A stretch of 64,000 nt of DNA from Patescibacteria group bacterium. Its GTDB lineage: Bacteria > Patescibacteriota > Patescibacteriia > Patescibacteriales > GWC2-42-12. Positions within the stretch are counted from its first letter, which is position 1, and each line of letters opens with the position of its first letter. The stretch is from NCBI GenBank assembly GCA_041653215.1, contig JBAZFW010000002.1:8990-72989 (forward strand), given 5' to 3'. The notes under the pieces were generated by a model that was not told the DNA's origin, made no database searches, and saw only the letters and a program-made list of their open reading frames with translations. A program made the translations under genes and the position numbers. Shown piece by piece: positions 2,339 to 27,437 of this stretch.

Positions 2339-4339
2339 AATGATATGTTCAATAAATCAAAAACAAAGTATATGAATTTTAAACAATTGCATGAGCAAGC
2401 TGATAATATTATCGGCTGTATCCCGCTCGTTAAAAAACGCCGACGTTTAAATTTTGCGTACAAAATTTTTAAATATCTTTGCTTAACGGTAGTTTTTTTA
2501 TTTTTGTTATTTTTAATTTTAGTAGCGTCGCAAATTACCGACTTAAAACAAATTTATAACCAGGCGAGTCTTGGTAAAAATAATCTTGAGCAAGCGGTTA
2601 TTTTTGCTAAGCAAAATGATTTTGAACAAGCCGCTGAATTAGCTAGGCTCGCAGAAGATAATTTTAATTTTTCAATCAATAAATTAAATAAAATAAAAAG
2701 TAATGTTTTTATAAATAATATGCCGTTCGCTTTAAGCCAGCTAAACGACGCGGAAAGTCTTTTAGTCGCCGTTCAATTTTTAAGCAAAGCGGTCGCGAGC
2801 GGAGCCGAGTTTGGTAAAAGCCTAGAAGCTATTATAACCGGAAATAAAGAATTTAATTTTTCTCAATTAACCGTTACGGAGAAACGCGAGCTACTCAAAA
2901 AAATATTTGAATCGTTACCAGAATTAAATGGCATAAAGGCAGATTTAGATTTAGCTTATATTAGTTTAGATCAAGCCGGCACTTCGGGGATTTTATTTAT
3001 TCTTAAGGATAAACTTAATCAAGCCAAGGAGCAAATAAATGAAGCTAGTTCGCTTTTAGCTAAAGCCGTGCCCTTATCCCAGATGATCCCGGCCCTAGCC
3101 GGTTATCCTGAGGAAGTAAATTATTTAGTTTTACTCCAAAATAATGACGAGTTAAGGCCAACCGGAGGATTTTTAGGCACTTACGGAGTTTTAAAAATAA
3201 AAGATGGCGATATAGTTAGTTTTGATACGCATGATATTTATCATCTTGATATGCCGGTTCAGGGTAAGATGAACGTTGAACCGCCGGAACCAATAAAAAA
3301 ATATTTGAATAATAAATGGTATTTGCGCGACGCGAATTGGTCGCCTGATTGGCCGACCGCGGCTAAAATGATTAACGGATTTTATCAAACTGAAAGCAGT
3401 TTAAATCCGGAAAATAAGGAAGTTATAAAATTTTCTGGAGTTTTAGCTATTACGCCAAAATTAATTACTGATTTTTTGAAAATAACCGGTCCGGTTACGG
3501 TCGAGGGTCAAGCTTATAACGAAAACAATTTTCAAGATTTATTGCAATATCGCGTAGAAAAAGGTTATATAAATTTAGGAGTTTCTTCTTGGCAGAGAAA
3601 AGAAGTTATTAGCGAAATATCAAAACAATTAAAAATTAAAATTTTTGATCTGCCGCCAAGCCAATGGTCGGGAATTATTAATACCGTAATTGATAATTTA
3701 TCTCAAAAGAATTTATTATTTTATTTAACCGATAGCCAATTAGAAAATATCGCGATTGAAAATGGTTGGGCTGGAGAAATAAAAAATTATTACGGCGATT
3801 ATTTTATGGTGGTTGACGCTAATTTAGCCGCTTTAAAAACCGACGCGGTTATGAATCGAAGTACAAATTATCAAGTAGTAGAAGGCTCTAACGGGTTATT
3901 TTCTAAATTAACTATTAATTACGCTCATAATGGTAAAGTTGACTGGAAAACCAGCGCTTATAAAAGTTATACTAGAGTTTATGTTCCTTTAGGCAGCCAA
4001 TTAATAAGAATTAGCGGTTATGAAAACAAAAATATAGATGTCGGCGATGAGTTAGGTAAAACTTGGTTTGGCTTTTATTTAGTCGTAGAGCCAGGAAAAA
4101 TCAGTAATATTACGCTTGAATATAAACTGCCGTCATCAGTTATGTCAAATAATAATTATAGCCTTTATATTCAGAAACAGCCTGGGAAAGAATTAGATAA
4201 TCTTTCGGTTGACTTAAGCTTTAAAAATGGTATAAAATCATATAGTCCAGCGAGCTTGTCTATGAAAAAAATAAACCCAACCAGAATGAAATGGTCAGGG
4301 GATTTAGGCATAGACAGAAGCTTTGAAATAAGATTCTAA
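2330..4339 (+). CDS. DUF4012-family membrane-anchored protein
   Basis: One N-terminal TM helix and a coiled region, then the DUF4012-type core LLQNNDELRPTGGFLGTYGVLKIKDG. Paralog of 24741-27437. The tracked start is TTG; ATG alternatives are at 2345 and 2372. Confidence 0.7.
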   Translation: MKINDMFNKSKTKYMNFKQLHEQADNIIGCIPLVKKRRRLNFAYKIFKYLCLTVVFLFLLFLILVASQITDLKQIYNQASLGKNNLEQAVIFAKQNDFEQAAELARLAEDNFNFSINKLNKIKSNVFINNMPFALSQLNDAESLLVAVQFLSKAVASGAEFGKSLEAIITGNKEFNFSQLTVTEKRELLKKIFESLPELNGIKADLDLAYISLDQAGTSGILFILKDKLNQAKEQINEASSLLAKAVPLSQMIPALAGYPEEVNYLVLLQNNDELRPTGGFLGTYGVLKIKDGDIVSFDTHDIYHLDMPVQGKMNVEPPEPIKKYLNNKWYLRDANWSPDWPTAAKMINGFYQTESSLNPENKEVIKFSGVLAITPKLITDFLKITGPVTVEGQAYNENNFQDLLQYRVEKGYINLGVSSWQRKEVISEISKQLKIKIFDLPPSQWSGIINTVIDNLSQKNLLFYLTDSQLENIAIENGWAGEIKNYYGDYFMVVDANLAALKTDAVMNRSTNYQVVEGSNGLFSKLTINYAHNGKVDWKTSAYKSYTRVYVPLGSQLIRISGYENKNIDVGDELGKTWFGFYLVVEPGKISNITLEYKLPSSVMSNNNYSLYIQKQPGKELDNLSVDLSFKNGIKSYSPASLSMKKINPTRMKWSGDLGIDRSFEIRF

Positions 4340-21181: not shown

Positions 21182-21335
21182 AGCGAAGCAATCCCTGGTA
21201 AGCCCAGAAAAACAAAAAATTAGCAAACACTACTTTAAAATAAATTCAGACTAACTCTAGGCATTTTAAAAAATAATTAAATTTTGTGCCATCAAACCGG
21301 AGATTGCTTCGTCGCTGGCGCTTCTCGCAATGACA
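21157..21335. repeat. Type-I palindromic element, 179 bp (long spacer)
   Basis: tgtcattgcgagcgaaacgaagtgaagcgaagcaatccc ... ggagattgcttcgtcgctggcgcttctcgcaatgaca. Confidence 0.8.
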
Positions 21336-21338
21336 AAT

Positions 21339-22505
21339 ATGAATACAAAAAAAATAAATCGTATCGGCATAGACGCTCGGTTTTACGGCCCAATAGGCAA
21401 GGGGTTGGGTAGATATACCCAGGAAGTTGTTGATAACATAATAAAGCTTGATCAAAAAAATAAGTACATTATATTTTTGCGTAAAGAAAATTTTTCTGAT
21501 TTTAAATGTGATGGCGTAAGAATAAAAAAAGTATTAGCTGATATAAAGTGGTATGGTTTAAGCGAGCAAATAATTTTTCCTTTTTACATTCTTCGCGAGC
21601 GCTTAGATTTAATGCATTTTCCGCATTTTAATGTACCGATTTTTTGCCCAGTTAAATTTATCGTTACCATCCACGATTTAATTTTAATAAAATTCCCGAC
21701 TTTGCGGGCCACTACTTTAGGGCCGGTCGTTTACAAAATAAAAAATTTAGCTTATAAAATTGTGATTTCATTAGCGGTTAAGCGAGCTATGAAAATTTTA
21801 GCGGTTTCAGAATATACGAAAAAAGCTGTCGTCGAACAATTTAAAGTTGATTCTAAAAAAGTTGTTGTAACTTATGAAGGCGTAGCAAATTTGTCTGTCA
21901 TTTCGAGCGTCAGCGAGAAATCGCTTGTAGACGAAAGCCTCTCGCATAAGGGATTTCTTCCTTCGGTCGAAATGACAAAAAATTATCTTCTTTATGTCGG
22001 TAACGGTTATCCGCATAAAAATTTAGAAGGTTTAATAAAAGTTTTTTCTGAAATAAGTAAAGCTAAACCAGAATTAAAATTAGTCTTAGTCGGCAAAGAA
22101 GATTATTTTTACAGCCGATTAAAACAATACGCTAAAAATTTTTCAAACAATATTATTTTTCCTGGCTATGTCATGGATAGTAAGTTAAAGGAATTATACG
22201 CTAACGCGACTCTTTATATTTTCCCTTCTTTTTATGAAGGTTTTGGTTTGCCGCCGTTAGAAGCTATGGCGCATGGTTTAGCGGTCGTTAGTTCCGATAA
22301 AACTTGCTTACCGGAAATACTTGGCGACGCTGCTTTATATTTTAATCCCGAGGATGAAATGGATATGAAAAATAAGATTGAGCAAGGATTAGCAGATGAA
22401 AAATTACGCGAAGATTTAATAAATAGGGGATATGAACAAATCAAAAAGTATAGTTGGGTAGACTGCGCGGAAAAAACTTTAGAAGTTTATAAAAGTTGTT
22501 TATAA
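21339..22505 (+). CDS. Glycosyltransferase family 4 (carries an in-frame palindromic element)
   Basis: RIGIDARFYG at the N-terminus and PSFYEGFGLPPLEAMAHGLAVVSSD at the C-terminus. The start was moved to the ATG at 21339, just outside the upstream repeat. Confidence 0.85.
   Translation: MNTKKINRIGIDARFYGPIGKGLGRYTQEVVDNIIKLDQKNKYIIFLRKENFSDFKCDGVRIKKVLADIKWYGLSEQIIFPFYILRERLDLMHFPHFNVPIFCPVKFIVTIHDLILIKFPTLRATTLGPVVYKIKNLAYKIVISLAVKRAMKILAVSEYTKKAVVEQFKVDSKKVVVTYEGVANLSVISSVSEKSLVDESLSHKGFLPSVEMTKNYLLYVGNGYPHKNLEGLIKVFSEISKAKPELKLVLVGKEDYFYSRLKQYAKNFSNNIIFPGYVMDSKLKELYANATLYIFPSFYEGFGLPPLEAMAHGLAVVSSDKTCLPEILGDAALYFNPEDEMDMKNKIEQGLADEKLREDLINRGYEQIKKYSWVDCAEKTLEVYKSCL
21896..21977. repeat. 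Type-III palindromic element (tgtcatttcgagcg...cgaaatgaca) inside the CDS, read through in frame
   Basis: tgtcatttcgagcgtcagcgagaaatcgc ... gggatttcttccttcggtcgaaatgaca. It is translated as SVISSVSEKSLVDESLSHKGFLPSVEMT. Confidence 0.8.
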
Positions 22506-22601
22506 AGAGTTATTATTAAAAAAACGCCGTTAATTATATGGTGTTTTTTTAATTAAAATGGCTAAAATTAAATAAAAATTATTTTAAAGAATTTATTTTA
22601 T

Positions 22602-22630
22602 TTGACATAATTAATATAATGTGATATAGT
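22602..22630 (+). promoter_or_regulatory. Sigma70-type promoter (TTGACA-17-TATAGT with TG extension)
   Basis: ttgaca at 22602-22607, a 17-nt spacer ending in tga, and tatagt at 22625-22630. It lies 17 nt upstream of the ATG at 22648. Confidence 0.55.
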
Positions 22631-22647
22631 AAAACATTAGTAAAAAT

Positions 22648-23661
22648 ATGGAAATAAAGAAAATAATCATCCCAAATAAACCTCATTTGGACCCGATCGT
22701 TGCTGTTTATTTATTAAAGCAATATGGTCAAAATGTTTTTAATGGCATTAAAGATGCTGAGATTATTTTTTGGGAACATAGCCATGATCCTTCCAATGAA
22801 GAAATTGTAAAATTTAAAGAACAGGGGATTTTGTCAGTCGACGTGGGCGGCAGTATGTTTGATCATCATAATAATAATTTTGACGGTAAAAAAGAAACAG
22901 CTTCTTCTTTAGTAGCTGCTTATTTAAATATAGAAACAAATCCGGAAATTAATGCATTATTAAATTATGTCAGAGAAGATGATTTAGAGGGCTTGCATAA
23001 TCGTTATGGCGATTTGGCGTATTTAATAAAATGTTTTCACAAGCAAAATTTACCGTCGACAAAAGTTGTTGAACTAGGCCTAAGGATGATAAATTATTTT
23101 CAGACCTCGCAAATTGACTGGCATTTAAATGTTAAAAAAGAATATGAAGATAAAACAAAGATTTATAAAGTTAAAAGATTCGACAAAAAATTAAAAGTTG
23201 GCGTGGTTGAATCTGACAATTCGCAATTAGCTAATTACGGTATAACTATGGATAATTTAGCCGTGGTTGTACAAAAACATTCAAACGGCCAAGTAATGAT
23301 CTTAACTAATAAAAATCAACGCCTTAACATAAAGGAAATTGTAGCCGCCATAAGATTAAGAGAACTAGAATTAGGCGGTTATAATAAATCAATTGATCCG
23401 GCTAAATTGCAGTTTGAAGGTAAAAATTCTTTAATTCCAAATTGGTTTTATCATAAAAGTTTAAACGCTTTTTTAAACGGTTCTCATGCTTTAAATAAAG
23501 TTGAACCGACTAAAGTTAAATTTAGCGAAATTGTTTCTTTTGTTTGGAATGGTTTAAGTTCAGAACATTCAGAATATTGCGATTGCGATCAAGGCGGTTT
23601 AAGTTGCCCGTTTGTTAAATACGGTTTTAGCAAATGCAAAAGCAGAAAATTTAACAACTAA
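22648..23661 (+). CDS. MYG1/UPF0160-like metal-dependent hydrolase with Cys-rich C-terminal tail
   Basis: PHLDPIVAVYLL, VDVGGSMFDHH and REDDLEG resemble the FHxDE, VDVGG..DHH and DxxDNG motifs of MYG1-family proteins (recalled, not searched). The C-terminus is EYCDCDQGGLSCPFVKYGFSKC. Confidence 0.45.
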   Translation: MEIKKIIIPNKPHLDPIVAVYLLKQYGQNVFNGIKDAEIIFWEHSHDPSNEEIVKFKEQGILSVDVGGSMFDHHNNNFDGKKETASSLVAAYLNIETNPEINALLNYVREDDLEGLHNRYGDLAYLIKCFHKQNLPSTKVVELGLRMINYFQTSQIDWHLNVKKEYEDKTKIYKVKRFDKKLKVGVVESDNSQLANYGITMDNLAVVVQKHSNGQVMILTNKNQRLNIKEIVAAIRLRELELGGYNKSIDPAKLQFEGKNSLIPNWFYHKSLNAFLNGSHALNKVEPTKVKFSEIVSFVWNGLSSEHSEYCDCDQGGLSCPFVKYGFSKCKSRKFNN

Positions 23662-23797
23662 ATAAGGATTTAAGCAATCTTTTGTTTATTAAATTTAGTA
23701 AATAGAAGATTGCGAATAAATCGCAACGGTCTTTTAAAGAAAAGGACGCATAAGCGTCAAAAAATACAACAATAAATTATTTCGAGGAGGATTTAGG

Positions 23798-24466
23798 ATG
23801 GATAACAAGGAAAAGGTTGTTTTGAAGGCTGAAGTGCTGGCGTCGGGCAAAGGATGTCCGGTATGCGGTGGGGAAAAAACGGAAAAAGCAAAAACTTGTA
23901 GACCATGCTTGACGAACATAGGTTCCGCGGCCACCAAGGCGGTTAACGCAATTGCTGAGGTGTCTTGCGATGCTCTTTTCGCCAATGCGATGGCTAACAG
24001 CGGCGACGTGGTCAGAGGTACAGTCTGGGGTCCATTTTTGGCTAATACCAGAATCGACATAGATGCCAAGTTCACCCCAGCGAAAAATGACATCGGCGCC
24101 CACTGGCATTGTAAGAGAGGCGTGCCTGGCGGATATATGTCAATTTTTATCTTCGGTGATAACCTTAAGGCCGGTCAGGAAGTCTGCGGTTTAGCAGAGT
24201 TGAAGATAAAGCATGCGCTTATCAAAGACAAGAATGGCAAAGTAATTAATAAAAAGCTCGTGCATTATATGCGCATGCAAACAGTGGAAGGCGTCAAGTC
24301 CGACTTCCGTCTGTCGGTTCTTGAGCCACAGGAAATTGATAGATTAAGACATGATTATCTACAGGCCACTGTGGTGCGGAACGATGGCTATGATTTCGCC
24401 GTCGGTTTTCTGCCAATGAAAAACGGCAAACGCGAAGAAGATGAGAAAATTGCGGCAACCGTGTAG
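23798..24466 (+). CDS. Orphan GC-rich protein with N-terminal CxxC...CxxC zinc-ribbon-like motif
   Basis: A 222-codon open frame at about 42-55% GC. AGGAGG at 23785-23790 lies 7 nt upstream of the ATG. The N-terminus reads GCPVCGGEKTEKAKTCRPC. I recognise no family. Confidence 0.7.
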   Translation: MDNKEKVVLKAEVLASGKGCPVCGGEKTEKAKTCRPCLTNIGSAATKAVNAIAEVSCDALFANAMANSGDVVRGTVWGPFLANTRIDIDAKFTPAKNDIGAHWHCKRGVPGGYMSIFIFGDNLKAGQEVCGLAELKIKHALIKDKNGKVINKKLVHYMRMQTVEGVKSDFRLSVLEPQEIDRLRHDYLQATVVRNDGYDFAVGFLPMKNGKREEDEKIAATV

Positions 24467-24501
24467 CGCCGCGATAATTCTCTCTAAAATTTAACCTTAT
24501 A

Positions 24502-24560
24502 CAAGGGTCTAAATACAATGCAAAATAAAGCAGAAGTATTTAGGCCCTTGCTTTATTTTA
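24502..24560 (+). terminator. Intrinsic terminator of the GC-rich ORF
   Basis: A 15-bp stem (caagggtctaaatac / gtatttaggcccttg, one G-U pair) is followed by ctttatttta. An alternative 11-bp pairing exists between aaaataaagca and tgctttatttt. Confidence 0.6.
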
Positions 24561-24683
24561 AACACTTTCCAGCTTTCTATATTTTATGTTATAATAATGT
24601 TAATAAATAACTAACTGCGCCATCTATATTATTATATGGTGCATAAGTTTTTTAAATATAAATAAATTTACTATTTTTTGTTC

Positions 24684-24727
24684 GTGAGATTGCTTCGTCG
24701 CCTGGTTGCAGGCTTCTCGCAATGACA
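24684..24727. repeat. Solo right half of a type-I element
   Basis: gtgagattgcttcgtcgcctggttgcaggcttctcgcaatgaca, with no matching left half upstream. Confidence 0.75.
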
Positions 24728-24740
24728 TTTGAATAAATAA

Positions 24741-27437
24741 ATGACTTTAAATAAATTCCAAAATTTAAAAGTTAACCCTGGCGCGAAATCGTCTCGTTTT
24801 GTTATAGATTTAAAAAAAGATTTAGTGGAAAATGAAGGCGTTAAGGAGATAAAAAAGCGAAATATAGAGACAAAAATAGAGGAGAAATTAGAAAAATTAT
24901 CCGAAATTAATTATAAGGGCGTATTTAAAAAAGGTAAGAAAAAAAGCGGAGTTTATTTTTCTAGTTTAGCAAAAACGCTAAAACCTCAGGCCTTTTTATT
25001 TAATAAGAACGCTGCTTTAAAATTACCCGCGGTAAAAACTAATAATGGGTTGTTTGATCAGCTAGCGCTTATCGGCTTAGGAAAATTATTGTATATTGTT
25101 TTAAAAAATATTTTTATTTTATTCTATAAAGTTTGCTACGCAGCCGGTTGGTTAATAATGTTCATTTTAAGGTTAGTTTATTTTTCACTTTTAGCCATAA
25201 TAAAACCGTTCGCAAAAATATTATATCTTTTGTCTATTAAATTGCATTTAGCTACGAATAAGGTTTTAAGGGATGTACCGCAAAATTACCATATGAAACA
25301 GGCTGTGGCTGTTTCGGTTTTTGCGAAATTACTTCACTCTGCCAAAAAGAAAAAAACCAGCGAGCAAAGCGATGAAAAGTTTGTTTCTGATAATAAAATT
25401 ATAGAAGATTCTCAAGCCGGTTTATTAAAGCCAGTTTTAGTTTTTGCTGGGATTTTATTAGCGATAATTCTTCCGGTTAAAGCTTTTACTTATTATAAGG
25501 TTATAGATACCGCTAAAGGCAAAGTTTTGGGCGCTAGCGAGAGCGCTATGGGTGATTTAATTTCTGCCGGTCAATCGGCCTTAGGTTTAAATTTTAATCA
25601 GGCCGGACAGAGTTTTAAAAATGCTAGTAATAATTTTTTAAACGCGCAAGCTGAACTTGAAAAAATTAATGGTCTAATATTTTCTATAGCCTCGATTTTA
25701 CCTGATAAAAATATGCAATTGGCGGCGGCCAGTAAAAATATTTTACGCGCTGGCGAAGCAAGCGCTAACGCGGGAAAAAATTTGAGCTTAGCCATGGAAA
25801 GCCTTTTTAGTTATAAAGAAAATAGCACTGATAGTATTTTAGAAAATTTAAGTTTGCATGGGCATAATGCTATAAATAATTTAAACGAATTAAATGAGTC
25901 GTTAAATCAAATAAATAGCGAGGTTATCCCGGAAGATTATCAAAAACAATTTATTTTATTAAAACAAAAAGCTGATGAACTTAATCGCGGTTTAAAAGAA
26001 TTTATTGGACTAGTCGATAGCTTAGGAGATTTTTTGGGAACTAGCATGGATAAACGTTATTTATTAGTTTTTCAAAATAATTCCGAATTGCGTGCTTCAG
26101 GCGGTTTTATTGGCAGTTTTGCTTTAATAGATTTTTCTAAAGGTGAAATAAAAAATATAGAAGTGCCTGGCGGGGGCAGTTATGACACTGAGGCTGGTTT
26201 TTTAAAAAAAATAAAAGCCCCAGAAGCTTTAAGTTTAGTTAGATCTGATTGGCATTTTTGGGACGCTAACTGGTGGCCTGATTGGCCGACCTCGGCGAAA
26301 AAACTCGCTTGGTTTTACGAAAATTCTGATGGTTCAACGGTTGATGGTGTAATTAGTTTTACACCAACGGTGATTGAAAATTTATTAAAAATAATTGGCC
26401 CAATAGATCTAAGAGATAAATATGGTTTAGTTATTGACGCTGATAATTTTTGGCTGGAAACGCAAAAATTGGCCGAGCAAAAACCAGATATAACTAAAGA
26501 ACCTAAAAAGATAATTGGCGATTTAATGAATAAAATTATTGAGGAGTTGCCTAAACGATTAAACAAAGACAATTTAGTGCCTTTATTTAAAATGATTGAA
26601 GAATCGCTATCTAGTAAAAACATTTTATTTTATTTTACGGATGAAAATTTAGAAGCTAAAGTTGATGATTTAGGTTGGAGCGGCAGAATTAAAAACACGA
26701 CTGGTGATTATTTAAGCGTGGTTAATTCTAATATCGCCGGCGGTAAGAGCGATCGAAAAATTAAACAACAAATTGTCCATCAAGCCGAGGTTCAACCGGA
26801 TGGCTCAATTATTGATAATTTAATTATTAGACGCGCTCATGAAGCAGTAAATCGCGAACCATTTTCTGGCGTTAGAAACGTTAATTGGTTAAGAATCTAT
26901 GTGCCGCTTGGCTCTGAATTATTAGAAGTCGACGGCTTTAAACCGGTGGATAAAATATTTTTTGACAAAGAGATCACTGGTTTAACTAACGATCCGGAAG
27001 TTTTAGCTAGCGAAGGTCAAGCGCAAACCGACGAATCAAGCGGTACAAAAATTTATAACGAGTTTAATAAAACCGTTTTTGCTAATTGGTCGCAATTAGA
27101 CCCGGGAGAAACTATTGAAATTAAAATAAAATATAAACTACCTTTTAAACTAACCGATAAAAAACAGCCGGCCGGTCAAGAATTTACAAATCAGTTGCTT
27201 GAAAAATTTGGCTCAATTTTGAACCCAGATGAGAAAAATTTATATTCATATTCTTTGCTAGTGCAAAAACAACCAGGCATGAATTCATCGACTATAGAGA
27301 GTGAGTTAAGGCTAGGCGATAACTTTAACTCAATTTGGCAATATCCGAATAATTTAAATTCTAGTTTAAATGGCTGGTCAATAACCGAAGATTTAAATCA
27401 AGATCAAATAATGGCGATAATGGCAGAAGAAAAATAA
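24741..27437 (+). CDS. DUF4012-family membrane protein (large paralog)
   Basis: TM helices in the N-terminal third, then FQNNSELRASGGFIGSFALIDFSKGE. It is collinear with 2330-4339 (WPDWPTSAKK, LFYFTDENLE, LLVQKQPG). Confidence 0.7.
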   Translation: MTLNKFQNLKVNPGAKSSRFVIDLKKDLVENEGVKEIKKRNIETKIEEKLEKLSEINYKGVFKKGKKKSGVYFSSLAKTLKPQAFLFNKNAALKLPAVKTNNGLFDQLALIGLGKLLYIVLKNIFILFYKVCYAAGWLIMFILRLVYFSLLAIIKPFAKILYLLSIKLHLATNKVLRDVPQNYHMKQAVAVSVFAKLLHSAKKKKTSEQSDEKFVSDNKIIEDSQAGLLKPVLVFAGILLAIILPVKAFTYYKVIDTAKGKVLGASESAMGDLISAGQSALGLNFNQAGQSFKNASNNFLNAQAELEKINGLIFSIASILPDKNMQLAAASKNILRAGEASANAGKNLSLAMESLFSYKENSTDSILENLSLHGHNAINNLNELNESLNQINSEVIPEDYQKQFILLKQKADELNRGLKEFIGLVDSLGDFLGTSMDKRYLLVFQNNSELRASGGFIGSFALIDFSKGEIKNIEVPGGGSYDTEAGFLKKIKAPEALSLVRSDWHFWDANWWPDWPTSAKKLAWFYENSDGSTVDGVISFTPTVIENLLKIIGPIDLRDKYGLVIDADNFWLETQKLAEQKPDITKEPKKIIGDLMNKIIEELPKRLNKDNLVPLFKMIEESLSSKNILFYFTDENLEAKVDDLGWSGRIKNTTGDYLSVVNSNIAGGKSDRKIKQQIVHQAEVQPDGSIIDNLIIRRAHEAVNREPFSGVRNVNWLRIYVPLGSELLEVDGFKPVDKIFFDKEITGLTNDPEVLASEGQAQTDESSGTKIYNEFNKTVFANWSQLDPGETIEIKIKYKLPFKLTDKKQPAGQEFTNQLLEKFGSILNPDEKNLYSYSLLVQKQPGMNSSTIESELRLGDNFNSIWQYPNNLNSSLNGWSITEDLNQDQIMAIMAEEK

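What the first reader, a model, noticed from the sequence alone, without database searches (positions are those of the whole stretch)
23674..24727. Self-contained GC-rich orphan gene cassette (candidate horizontal acquisition)
Hand counts of 60-nt lines inside 23821-24240 give 42-55% G+C, against about 25-40% in the flanks. This is high enough to generate two long spurious antisense ORFs.

The 222-aa ORF has a canonical AGGAGG 7 nt upstream of its ATG, which is rare in this window. It also has its own strong intrinsic terminator (24502-24560). It starts with a CPVC-x12-CRPC zinc-ribbon-like motif, and I recognise no family.

It is bracketed by repeat debris. To the left is a weak aagcaatct...agattgc pair (23674-23713) resembling the type-I inner repeat. 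To the right is a solo type-I right half (24684-24727). As with the methyltransferase cassette, foreign DNA appears associated with these elements. The donor could be a higher-GC host or phage.
Basis: partly seen in the sequence, partly recalled or inferred. Interest (0 to 1): 0.65.

Follow-up and report, generated by a model that had tools for sequence, protein, structure and literature searches.

The report
GC-rich hypervariable gene cassette, native
The GC-rich 222-codon gene is not fresh foreign DNA: it is a fast-changing, lineage-restricted gene of ultra-small (Patescibacteria) bacteria, exchanged between relatives as a cassette between two conserved hairpins, and it keeps its high GC content wherever it occurs.

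Summary
The ORF at 23798-24466 has 47.8% GC (GC3 0.52) in a 33-34% GC genome and ranks 3rd of 874 ORFs. It has a rare AGGAGG ribosome-binding site and a strong terminator.

The gene is neither an orphan nor a recent import.
- It belongs to an unnamed family (67 clusters) found only in one Patescibacteria order. No relatives were found in phages, plasmids or viral contigs.
- It nearly always follows the 337-aa gene at 22648-23661.
- The GC excess recurs in 10 of 15 loci and does not track host GC (r=0.07). Synonymous sites have turned over, so the excess is maintained, not inherited from a donor.
- Ribosomal-protein codon usage, RNA-folding scores and antisense-ORF tests exclude the simple explanations.

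The CDS is hypervariable. Relatives with 97%-identical upstream protein carry a target only about 40-45% identical. The break lies just after a single-copy, ultra-conserved leader palindrome (23674-23713). A conserved terminator hairpin closes the unit.

The slot itself turns over within the genus: other cargo, or none.

A confident AlphaFold model shows a C4 zinc ribbon, a long helix and an OB-like barrel, with no significant structural match.

Function is inferred: a nucleic-acid-binding partner of the upstream protein.

The parts
22648..23661 (+). Upstream partner gene 'unk337' (337 aa). It is conserved, has low GC and belongs to no named family. It has DHH-like motifs and a Cys-rich tail.
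   Evidence: It occurs in the same genomes as the target in the genus. It is adjacent to the target in L002, L003, L006, L009, L039, L041, L046 and L047. Identity within the genus is 75-89%. No Pfam, PDB or NCBIfam hit was found.
23674..23713 (+). Leader palindrome with a 20-bp AU-rich stem. It is single-copy and ultra-conserved, and it marks the left edge of the variable cassette.
   Evidence: searches (I3) show compensatory changes and G.U pairs that work only on the + strand. It is 46/46 identical between the window and L006/G014 and is single-copy in the genome. The identity break against L048 lies just after it.
23710..23735 (+). Second small hairpin (TTGCGAATAAATCGCAA) plus a T-run. It is a terminator-like end of the unk337 transcript and overlaps the palindrome's 3' arm by 4 nt.
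   Evidence: The scanner found it and it is conserved in congeneric orthologues.
23745..23758 (+). Third small hairpin (GACGCATAAGCGTC) in the leader.
   Evidence: It is present with changed but still pairing sequences in the orthologues.
23785..23790 (+). Shine-Dalgarno sequence AGGAGG, 7 nt upstream of the ATG.
   Evidence: One search shows the sequence. AAGGAGG-like sequences are conserved in 12 of 13 orthologue upstreams examined, and only 2.8% of the genome's ORFs have AGGAGG upstream.
23798..24466 (+). Target CDS (222 aa). The protein has a C4 zinc ribbon (C20, C23, C34, C37), a long helix (43-67), an OB-like beta barrel (73-206) and a short charged tail. The gene is GC-rich and hypervariable.
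   Evidence: ORF and family. Structure model with pLDDT 93.6. Weak OB-fold matches. Coding substitution pattern of 0.32/0.24/0.60. GC statistics.
24502..24560 (+). Intrinsic terminator. It is a long hairpin with an inner stem followed by a T-run, and it forms the right conserved edge of the cassette.
   Evidence: Searches show the hairpin. predicts 19 pairs, 7 of them with compensatory changes, across 8 orthologues. It is single-copy in the genome.
24566..24595 (+). Promoter-like site TTTCCA-18-TATAAT with a TG extension, probably serving the DUF4012 gene.
   Evidence: It matches 10 of 12 positions in the scan. This is a consensus match only.
24684..24727 (+). Solo right arm of a dispersed palindromic intergenic repeat. 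It is not specific to this cassette.
   Evidence: There are 5 copies in the window, including copies at 21300 and 27519. The alignment shows that other copies keep the left arm GAAGCAATCTC. The repeat is absent at this site in sister genome G017.
23734..24109 (-). Two antisense ORFs of 119 and 110 aa. They are by-products of the high GC content.
   Evidence: One search lists them. Their lengths fall within the synonymous-shuffle null, and no frame is consistently open in the orthologues.
21330..22505 (+). GT4 glycosyltransferase, the left conserved flank of the variable slot.
   Evidence: Pfam match. Homology with G017 ends just after its stop codon.
24741..27437 (+). DUF4012 protein, the right conserved flank of the variable slot.
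   Evidence: Pfam match. It is present in all 9 congeners tested. Homology with G017 resumes about 15 nt before its ATG.

Best explanation
What is shown:
- The ORF at 23798-24466 is a real protein-coding gene.
- It is the downstream half of a two-gene module (the 337-aa gene plus this gene) endemic to one order of Patescibacteria.
- It sits in a cell-envelope glycosylation cluster, in a slot between GT4 and DUF4012 whose content turns over within the genus.
- The coding part is a hypervariable cassette. Divergent alleles are exchanged between relatives between two conserved, single-copy hairpins: a leader palindrome and the terminator.
- The high GC content is a property of the gene family itself. 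It stays at about 0.5 regardless of host GC.

What is inferred:
- The GC excess is maintained either by GC-biased gene conversion acting on the mismatch-rich, frequently recombining segment, or by selection on the mRNA.
- The protein (N-terminal C4 zinc ribbon, long helix, OB-like barrel) binds nucleic acid. It serves as the variable recognition or regulatory partner of the conserved, enzyme-like upstream protein.
- The conserved strong SD, leader hairpins and terminator give it an insulated transcript that is efficiently translated.
For: Family and synteny:
- 15 close homologues and 67 profile-level clusters exist.
- The order PMT_2 - GT4 - unk337 - target - DUF4012 holds in every longer locus.
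- The pair recurs in other families of the order (L039, L041, L046, L047).

Distribution:
- Present in 5 of 11 species of the genus and 0 of 14 genomes from other genera of the family.
- Present in 21 of 316 genomes of the order.
- Present in 0 of 400 other genomes sampled across the phylum.
- No hit in phages, plasmids or IMG/VR.

Slot turnover:
- G017, the sister genome, carries an unrelated 279-aa ORF.
- G018 carries a 172-aa ORF and G016 carries nothing.
- G019 carries an inverted, divergent unk-like gene.

GC excess is conserved and not ancestry-driven:
- The mean excess is +0.109 over 15 loci, and r with host GC is 0.07.
- 57% of identical residues use different codons, yet GC3 stays near 0.6 along the whole CDS.
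- The excess splits into +0.063 from amino-acid composition and +0.075 from synonymous choice.

Allele swapping:
- In L048/L049, unk337 is 97% identical in protein and about 90% in DNA.
- Their target is about 40-45% identical in protein.
- The break lies directly after the palindrome.
- In L003 versus G010, nucleotide identity is 0.80-0.92 in unk337, 0.42-0.64 in the target and 0.76 in the terminator.
- Target branches are 3-5 times longer than unk337 branches.

Cis elements: SD, terminator covariation, leader hairpin covariation and conservation, both hairpins single-copy.

Fold: pLDDT 93.6 and pTM 0.87. The best matches are all OB-fold nucleic-acid binders, but they are weak.
Against: - No experiment or expression data exist.
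- The OB-fold assignment rests on non-significant Foldseek matches (best E 0.027, target TM 0.35-0.49).
- The cause of the GC excess is not demonstrated. If gene conversion were simply regional, unk337 next door should also be GC-rich, but it is GC-poor.
- Five of 15 loci show little or no excess: L020, L041, L042, L043, L046.
- The pairing with unk337 is not universal. L042 has a different upstream gene, and in L040 and L043 the upstream side lies beyond the end of the contig.
- The function of unk337 is unknown. The DHH/MYG1 lead failed profile tests.
- Very fast in-place evolution cannot be fully separated from allele replacement for the deeper comparisons.
Confidence: 0.6

Rival explanations
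1. Recent horizontal acquisition of a foreign cassette from a higher-GC bacterium or a phage, possibly helped by the flanking repeat elements.
For: - The gene is a strong compositional outlier, 3rd of 874 ORFs.
- Other top GC3 outliers include two large serine recombinases.
- The gene is absent from the sister genome G017.
- A dispersed repeat lies downstream.
Against: - Syntenic orthologues with the same GC excess occur in at least 10 independent assemblies and in other families of the order.
- The family is absent from phages, plasmids, viral contigs and the rest of the phylum.
- There is no integrase, tRNA or direct repeat at the borders.
- The right repeat is one of many intergenic copies, and the left 'repeat' is a conserved single-copy hairpin.
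Confidence: 0.05
2. One ancient transfer from a very GC-rich donor into an ancestor of the order, followed by vertical descent and still-incomplete amelioration.
For: - The distribution is patchy.
- The GC excess is found mainly in one subfamily.
- In the lowest-GC host (the window) the gene has the lowest GC (0.478) among the congeneric copies that show the excess, as partial amelioration would predict.
Against: - Synonymous sites are near saturation among close orthologues, with 57% of conserved residues recoded.
- The excess persists between loci whose flanking proteins are only 47-61% identical.
- Target GC is uncorrelated with host GC.
- No donor lineage is detectable.
Confidence: 0.12
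3. The gene is native and very highly expressed, and its GC-rich codons reflect translational selection.
For: - A strong SD is conserved in a genome that mostly lacks SDs.
- The terminator is strong and conserved.
- GGAGG-preceded genes as a class have higher GC3, 0.356 versus 0.279, p=3.6e-10.
- The gene prefers C-ending Phe, Asn and Ile codons.
Against: - Eleven ribosomal-protein genes have GC3 of 0.22-0.31, the same as the genome mean.
- The shift also favours G-ending codons (AAG, GTG, CAG, CTG) and GC at first and second codon positions. That is a general GC shift rather than use of optimal codons.
Confidence: 0.1
4. The GC richness serves a second function of the nucleic acid: a structured RNA embedded in the CDS, or a conserved overlapping antisense gene.
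For: - The region 23780-24570 folds with z = -4.1, but this stretch includes the terminator.
- Long antisense ORFs exist.
Against: - Folding z-scores for the CDS alone are -1.3, -0.3 and -2.5. The control gene gives -0.7, +1.9 and -3.0.
- There is no Rfam hit.
- Antisense ORFs fall within the synonymous-shuffle null and are not conserved in frame.
- Nucleotide identity in the CDS falls to about 0.5 between alleles.
Confidence: 0.03

Closest known systems
Replacement flexible genomic islands / hypervariable allele-swap loci. These are divergent versions of a gene at the same chromosomal site, exchanged by homologous recombination in conserved flanks, classically in cell-envelope glycosylation clusters. 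This comparison is from my own knowledge of the concept.
   Same: - The chromosomal position is the same in all carriers.
- The flanks are conserved while the CDS is highly divergent.
- The identity breaks are sharp.
- Relatives carry alternative unrelated cargo or an empty site.
- The locus lies in a glycosyltransferase cluster.
   Different: - The unit is a single small cytoplasmic protein (no signal peptide is apparent in the sequence), not a surface-polysaccharide operon.
- The anchors are two short conserved hairpins.
- The variable gene carries a conserved GC excess.
OB-fold single-stranded nucleic-acid-binding proteins: bacterial and phage SSB, RPA, the MCM N-terminal domain (OB plus zinc ribbon), and T4 gp32 (a zinc-containing SSB that regulates its own mRNA).
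   Same: - The top Foldseek matches in both libraries are SSB, RPA, editosome and MCM OB folds.
- A zinc-binding element sits beside a beta barrel.
- Many members have a charged or acidic C-terminal tail.
- The gene is flanked by conserved RNA hairpins that could serve autoregulation. This last point is inference.
   Different: - No match is significant (E at least 0.027 for the confident model against PDB, at least 1e-3 for the weaker model against BFVD).
- There is no Pfam SSB hit.
- The domain order (ribbon, helix, barrel) and the extra strands at 170-206 are not those of SSB.
- The gene is hypervariable and accessory, whereas SSB is essential and conserved.
Compositionally atypical genomic islets from horizontal transfer (the classical GC-deviation criterion).
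   Same: - The GC and GC3 deviation is strong.
- The phyletic distribution is patchy.
- The gene is absent from the sister genome.
   Different: - The deviation is conserved across divergent hosts and is independent of host GC.
- There are no mobility genes.
- No external donor is detectable.
- Synteny holds across families.
Integron gene cassettes (an ORF bounded by an imperfect-palindrome attC site recognised as a folded hairpin).
   Same: A short, single-ORF, exchangeable unit is bracketed by imperfect palindromes.
   Different: - No cassette array is seen in the locus, and I noticed no integrase-like ORF there. I did not search for an integrase.
- The palindrome lies upstream of the ORF and is single-copy in the genome.
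- The 3' hairpin is an ordinary terminator followed by a T-run.

Membership tests
Recently acquired horizontal-transfer islet | Composition deviates from the host genome | tested here: met
   GC is 0.478 versus 0.341 and GC3 is 0.516 versus 0.282. The gene ranks 3rd of 874 ORFs.
Recently acquired horizontal-transfer islet | Absent from close relatives at the same site, and not shared by descent with more distant ones | tested here: not met
   The gene is absent in G016-G019. It is present and syntenic in 4 other congeners, in several metagenome relatives and in other families of the order.
Recently acquired horizontal-transfer islet | Mobility signatures at the borders (integrase, transposase, tRNA, direct repeats) | tested here: not met
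   No such ORFs or direct repeats were found. The right repeat is one of many intergenic copies.
Recently acquired horizontal-transfer islet | Identifiable donor pool with matching composition | tested here: not met
   There is no hit in phages, plasmids or IMG/VR. None of 400 other genomes sampled across the phylum has the family, which is confined to one order.
Replacement (allele-swap) flexible locus | Same chromosomal site, conserved flanks, highly divergent alleles with sharp identity breaks | tested here: met
   Against L048, flanks are 0.82-1.00 identical and the CDS about 0.5-0.6. L003 versus G010 shows the same pattern. unk337 is 75-89% identical within the genus and the target 37-71%.
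Replacement (allele-swap) flexible locus | Alternative unrelated content or an empty site in other strains or species | tested here: met
   G017 has a 279-aa ORF, G018 a 172-aa ORF and G016 nothing. The alternative cargos are unrelated to the target by hhalign.
C4 zinc ribbon | Two CxxC knuckles that are conserved family-wide | tested here: met
   C20 is invariant and C23, C34 and C37 are at least 90% conserved in 48 sequences. Weak profile matches to bL32/eL43 ribbons and Pfam DZR_2 support this.
OB-fold SSB-like nucleic-acid binders | Five-stranded OB barrel superposable on known members | tested here: inconclusive
   The model is confident (pLDDT 93.6). The best Foldseek E is only 0.027, with target TM 0.35-0.49, although the top hits are consistently OB folds.
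OB-fold SSB-like nucleic-acid binders | Sequence-profile membership (Pfam SSB or PDB SSB) | tested here: not met
   There is no SSB hit in Pfam, PHROGs, NCBIfam or the PDB profile search.
OB-fold SSB-like nucleic-acid binders | Binding of single-stranded DNA or RNA | not testable with these tools
   This needs EMSA or a similar assay with purified protein.
MYG1/DHH phosphoesterases (for the partner gene unk337) | Profile-level similarity to DHH/MYG1 families or structures | tested here: not met
   A profile of 23 sequences gave no PDB hit. Scanning each member against Pfam gave only ChrB_C, in 4 of 23. The invariant D15, D72, H74, D112 and D190 residues remain suggestive of a metal site.
Known anti-phage defence systems | Match to a PADLOC model | tested here: not met
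   There are no hits for the target, unk337 or the alternative cargos.
Intrinsic terminator (24502-24560) | Stable hairpin followed by a U-run and kept by compensatory changes | tested here: met
   The hairpin has dG of about -26 kcal/mol and a T-run in all congeners. Of 19 predicted pairs, 7 show double changes.
Rfam RNA families | Covariance-model match in 23000-25500 | tested here: not met
   There are no matches at E<=1.

The most novel reading that the evidence does not exclude
The conserved 337-aa enzyme-like protein and the hypervariable zinc-ribbon/OB-like protein form a previously undescribed two-gene conflict module in Patescibacteria, either anti-phage or anti-mobile-element defence, or a toxin/immunity-type pair.

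In this reading the OB-like protein is the diversifying recognition subunit. Its coding cassette is exchanged between strains between two dedicated hairpins. GC-biased gene conversion at this recombination hotspot has driven the gene-specific GC excess.
Probability: 0.15. Interest if true: 0.75.

Novelty: new variant of a known kind. Interest (0 to 1): 0.45.

Why it matters
It is a cautionary and instructive case for GC-based detection of foreign DNA. One of the strongest compositional outliers in this genome is not a recent import. It is a lineage-endemic gene whose GC excess is maintained while its sequence turns over and is swapped between relatives.

It defines an unnamed protein family with a confidently predicted fold (zinc ribbon, helix, OB-like barrel) that has no significant structural match. 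It also defines a conserved gene pair of unknown function in bacteria that are hard to study.

The hairpin-bracketed swap cassette, with a 46-nt leader palindrome identical between species, offers testable cis elements. It also offers a natural system for asking whether GC-biased gene conversion or mRNA-level selection shapes composition in very AT-rich, streamlined genomes.

Tried and rejected
- **Codon bias of a highly expressed gene:** rejected as the main cause. The ribosomal-protein genes on contig C38 have GC3 of 0.22-0.31.
- **Embedded structured RNA:** there is no Rfam hit. Folding z-scores for the CDS alone are no different from the neighbouring control gene. That script hit the time limit after 3 orthologues.
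- **Conserved antisense gene:** rejected by the synonymous-shuffle null.
- **Contaminant contig:** rejected. All 50 contigs have GC of 0.29-0.375.
- **Phage, plasmid or viral origin:** no hits were found.
- **MYG1/DHH identity of unk337:** Profile searches did not confirm it.
- **Alternative cargos of G017 and G018 as remote homologues of the target:** rejected by hhalign.
- **Leader palindrome or terminator as members of the dispersed repeat family:** rejected. Both are single-copy in the genome.
- **Weak PHROG/Pfam XkdN-like tail-chaperone matches (E 0.004 and 0.15):** dismissed as noise.
- **The search for related loci with the broad alignment:** it failed for lack of conserved stretches. 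The closer alignment found only two genome loci.
- **Fuzzy-regex genome scan:** it timed out and was replaced by blastn-short.
Full report
**1. The observation**

The region is as described.
- Sliding 200-nt windows give 0.50-0.53 GC across 23800-24200 and 0.43-0.46 up to about 24500. The flanks are 0.26-0.35.
- The ORF at 23798-24466 (222 aa) has GC 0.478 and GC3 0.516.
- I called 874 non-overlapping ORFs of at least 100 aa in the 1.03-Mb, 50-contig genome. Their mean GC is 0.341 (sd 0.044) and mean GC3 is 0.282 (sd 0.056). The gene ranks 3rd on both measures.
- AGGAGG lies at 23785-23790, 7 nt before the ATG. Only 24 of 867 ORFs have AGGAGG in the equivalent position.
- The terminator at 24502-24560 is a 15-bp stem with one G.U pair. 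It has a 19-nt loop holding a small inner stem and is followed by CTTTATTTT. The simple scanner missed it because of the loop size.
- The zinc motif reads CPVC-x10-CRPC, not x12.
- The two antisense ORFs exist.
- The inverted pair at 23674-23713 exists (I3).
- 24684-24727 is a solo right arm of a dispersed palindromic repeat. The window holds five copies where none is expected by chance. Other copies keep the left arm.

**2. It is a real gene of an unnamed, lineage-restricted family**

- Pfam, PHROGs, NCBIfam, PADLOC and PDB sequence searches name nothing. Rfam finds nothing in 23000-25500.
- A word-indexed search found 15 homologues at 41-66% identity, all unnamed.
- A profile search over 1.84 billion representatives found 67 clusters, 41 of them at E<=1e-10.
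- In a 48-sequence alignment, C20 and Y157 are invariant. Nearly invariant are P21, C23, G24, K27, C34, C37, G112, F119, G120, G126, R159, P189, G203 and F204.
- Among the six closest orthologues, differences per site at codon positions 1, 2 and 3 are 0.32, 0.24 and 0.60. This is the signature of a translated gene.
- Named records place the hosts in Patescibacteria/Parcubacteria.

**3. Structure**

- With 15 sequences, AlphaFold gave pLDDT 62. With 48 sequences it gave pLDDT 93.6 and pTM 0.87.
- The model shows a zinc ribbon (about residues 17-40), a long helix (43-67), a beta barrel (strands from 73 to 206) and a short tail.
- Foldseek found no significant match in the PDB for the confident model (best E 0.027). 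The earlier, weaker model was searched against PDB and BFVD and also gave no significant match.
- The leading hits in every search are OB-fold nucleic-acid binders: SSB, Rim1, editosome OB proteins, RPA and the MCM N-terminal domain. Target-normalised TM is 0.35-0.49.
- I therefore call the barrel OB-like. I do not file the protein as an SSB.

**4. Genomic context: a conserved pair in a variable slot**

- Every longer locus carrying a close homologue has the order PMT_2 - GT4 - 331-337-aa unknown ('unk337') - target - DUF4012.
- The unk337-target pair recurs in other families of the order:
  - L039: PMT - unk - target - DUF4012.
  - L041: HPF - unk - target - SecA.
  - L046: PMT - unk - target - beta-CASP metallo-beta-lactamase nuclease.
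  - L047: unk - target - DUF4012.
- Distribution is patchy:
  - 5 of 11 species of the genus and 0 of 14 genomes from other genera of the family.
  - 21 of 316 genomes of the order, about ten of them strong full-length matches.
  - 0 of 400 other genomes drawn evenly from the phylum at E<=1e-8.
- unk337 has the same presence/absence pattern in the genus.
- DUF4012 and PMT are present in all congeners tested. That allows the 'empty' sites to be read:

| Genome | Content of the slot between GT4 and DUF4012 |
|---|---|
| G017 (sister genome; PMT 94% identical) | unrelated 279-aa ORF on the opposite strand, GC 0.45 |
| G018 | 172-aa ORF |
| G016 | nothing (15-nt spacer) |
| G019 | inverted, 28%-identical unk337-like gene |

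- The alternative cargos are unrelated to the target.
- Homology between the window and G017 ends just after the GT4 stop and resumes about 15 nt before the DUF4012 ATG.
- Flank trees group G000 with G017 and then G019, both of which lack the pair. The slot has therefore turned over even within that small clade.

**5. The GC excess is a conserved property of the gene, not a scar of recent transfer**

- Across 15 loci the target has GC 0.42-0.56 (one at 0.33), while the host flanks are 0.32-0.45.
- The mean excess is +0.109, and 10 of 15 loci exceed +0.05.
- Target GC is uncorrelated with host GC (r=0.07).
- unk337 tends to be GC-poorer than its host, by 0.03 on average.
- In the window, the excess of 0.138 splits into +0.063 from amino-acid composition and +0.075 from synonymous codon choice. 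The synonymous GC3 excess is +0.207, rank 4 of 874.
- Among the close orthologues, 57% of identical residues are encoded by different codons. GC3 nevertheless stays at 0.53-0.67 along the whole CDS.
- Synonymous sites have therefore largely turned over while the composition stayed high. That points to a gene-specific equilibrium rather than un-ameliorated ancestry.
- The excess also persists in loci whose flanking proteins are only 47-61% identical to the window's (L039, L040).
- No homologue exists in 50,697 phage records, 72,556 plasmids or IMG/VR.

**6. Simple explanations tested and excluded**

- Expression-linked codon bias: eleven ribosomal-protein genes on contig C38 have GC3 of 0.22-0.31. 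The target's shift also includes G-ending codons and first and second codon positions.
- Structured RNA in the CDS: folding z-scores are -1.3, -0.3 and -2.5 for the target.
- Overlapping antisense gene: antisense open frames fall within the synonymous-shuffle null and are not consistently open in one frame.
- Contamination: every contig has GC of 0.29-0.375.

**7. The CDS is hypervariable and has been swapped between relatives**

- Within the genus, unk337 is 75-89% identical but the target is 37-71% identical. Target branches are 3-5 times longer.
- The decisive case is two independent contigs, L048 and L049.
  - Their unk337 is 97% identical in protein to the window's.
  - Their DNA is 0.82-1.00 identical through GT4, unk337 and the leader palindrome. 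Positions 23663-23712 are 100% identical.
  - Identity falls to 0.76 at 23713-23762, to 0.62 at 23763-23812, and to 0.44-0.72 through the target.
  - The encoded protein is only about 40-45% identical.
- Point mutation in place cannot produce that contrast. The coding segment has been replaced by a divergent allele.
- L003 versus G010 shows the right side of the trough. Nucleotide identity is 0.80-0.92 in unk337, 0.72-0.74 in the leader, 0.42-0.64 in the target and 0.76 at the terminator.

**8. Conserved cis elements bracket the variable segment**

- The unk337-target spacer is better conserved than the target CDS.
- The palindrome at 23674-23713 is present in seven congeneric loci. It shows compensatory changes and several G.U pairs that work only in the + strand RNA.
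- A 46-nt stretch of the palindrome is 100% identical between the window and L006/G014, whose unk337 protein is only 79% identical. It is single-copy in the genome.
- It is followed by a small hairpin plus a T-run at 23710-23735, which is terminator-like and overlaps the palindrome by 4 nt. A third hairpin follows at 23745-23758 with covarying sequence, then the SD.
- An AAGGAGG-like SD is conserved in 12 of 13 orthologue upstream regions.
- The terminator hairpin is conserved in eight congeners. Seven of 19 pairs show double compensatory changes, and it is also single-copy.
The right repeat is unrelated to the cassette.

**9. Assembly**

- Indirect support is strong. The same gene order occurs in many independent assemblies.
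- An independent 809-nt contig reproduces window 24152-24732 at 100% identity. That stretch covers the target's 3' half, the terminator and the repeat.
- L048 and L049 reproduce the GT4 - unk337 - leader - target junction.

**10. Interpretation**

Shown:
- This is a real gene of an order-endemic family.
- It is paired with unk337.
- It lies in a slot that turns over.
- Its CDS is hypervariable and allele-swapped between two conserved hairpins.
- Its GC excess is conserved and independent of the host.
- The confident fold has a zinc ribbon and an OB-like barrel.

Inferred:
- The protein binds nucleic acid and acts as the variable partner of the conserved, enzyme-like unk337. The unk337 alignment has invariant D15, D72, H74, D112 and D190. 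A DHH/MYG1 assignment was not confirmed.
- The GC excess is maintained by one of two forces.
  - One is GC-biased gene conversion acting where recombination heteroduplexes are mismatch-rich, which would be the variable CDS only. That would explain the sharp limits and the shift at all three codon positions.
  - The other is selection on the mRNA.
- I cannot discriminate between these two here.
- The hypervariability, alternative cargos and patchy distribution also allow a conflict-system reading (defence or immunity). PADLOC gives no support for it.

**11. Verdict**

The unit is a cassette in a variable slot and has been exchanged horizontally among relatives. It is not an orphan, not recently imported from a higher-GC donor or phage, and not tied to the dispersed repeats.
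- I rate it a new variant of a known kind, an allele-swap 'replacement' locus carrying an uncharacterised protein family and an unusual maintained GC excess. Interest is moderate.

Noticed in passing
whole genome G000 (e.g. C6:42462-43058, C9:34742-35140, C19:3867-4592): ORFs preceded by GGAGG are GC3-richer as a class: n=36, mean 0.356, versus 0.279 for the rest (Mann-Whitney p=3.6e-10). None lies on a high-GC contig. In this genome, which mostly lacks SDs, strong-SD genes may form a distinct compositional or expression class.
   Followed up: partly
L020 (G015) 3793-4182, minus strand: In congener G015 an extra ORF of about 83 aa, with its own GGAGGAGG SD, sits between the conserved leader palindrome and a divergent target allele. 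That allele is 199 aa and shows no GC excess.
   Followed up: no
L050 1-228 (ERZ27247350 contig of 809 nt): This contig matches window 24152-24732 at 100%, but its first 228 nt are unrelated. It could be a natural mosaic or truncated target allele, or an assembly chimera between co-occurring strains.
   Followed up: partly
L016 (G017) 3459-4298, minus strand: The sister genome carries an unrelated, GC-rich 279-aa ORF (GC 0.45 versus 0.31-0.34) in the same slot. By eye, its C-terminus (GRVIWWNEANGIGAL...) resembles a cold-shock-like OB motif. It has no Pfam, NCBIfam or PADLOC hit.
   Followed up: partly
L019 (G019) 3122-4192: G019 has an inverted, 28%-identical unk337-like gene of 356 aa in the slot. 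It is GC-rich relative to its flanks (0.41 versus 0.31), and no target gene accompanies it.
   Followed up: no
window 22648-23661 and orthologues: unk337 is GC-poorer than its host flanks in 10 of the 11 loci where both were measured, by 0.03 on average. The module thus pairs a GC-poor gene with a GC-rich one. Four of 23 family members give weak ChrB_C (PF09828) matches.
   Followed up: partly
L040 3295-4587 and L046 7724-9013: In two distant lineages a beta-CASP metallo-beta-lactamase (RNase J/CPSF-like) gene lies next to or near the target. In L041 a ribosome hibernation factor gene lies next to unk337. This hints at an RNA-metabolism neighbourhood.
   Followed up: no
window 24566-24727: A near-consensus promoter-like site (TTTCCA-18-TATAAT with TG) precedes DUF4012. 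The solo repeat arm at 24684-24727 lies between it and the ATG, so it would sit in the DUF4012 5' UTR. The repeat is absent there in G017.
   Followed up: no
alignment A1, C-termini of target orthologues: Eight of the 15 sequences in alignment A1 end in a conserved E/A-A-C-A-G/E/A motif after an acidic stretch. The window's copy ends in AATV instead.
   Followed up: no
window 22013-23712 versus L048: The flanks shared with L048 alternate between 100%-identical tracts (22013-22212, 22613-22762, 23663-23712) and tracts at 82-96%. This mosaic is typical of recent homologous recombination between close strains.
   Followed up: no
G000 C12:46-1668 and C17:18711-20450: Two large serine recombinase genes are among the top GC3 outliers of the genome (0.50 and 0.49). 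They are candidate integrative elements elsewhere in the genome.
   Followed up: no
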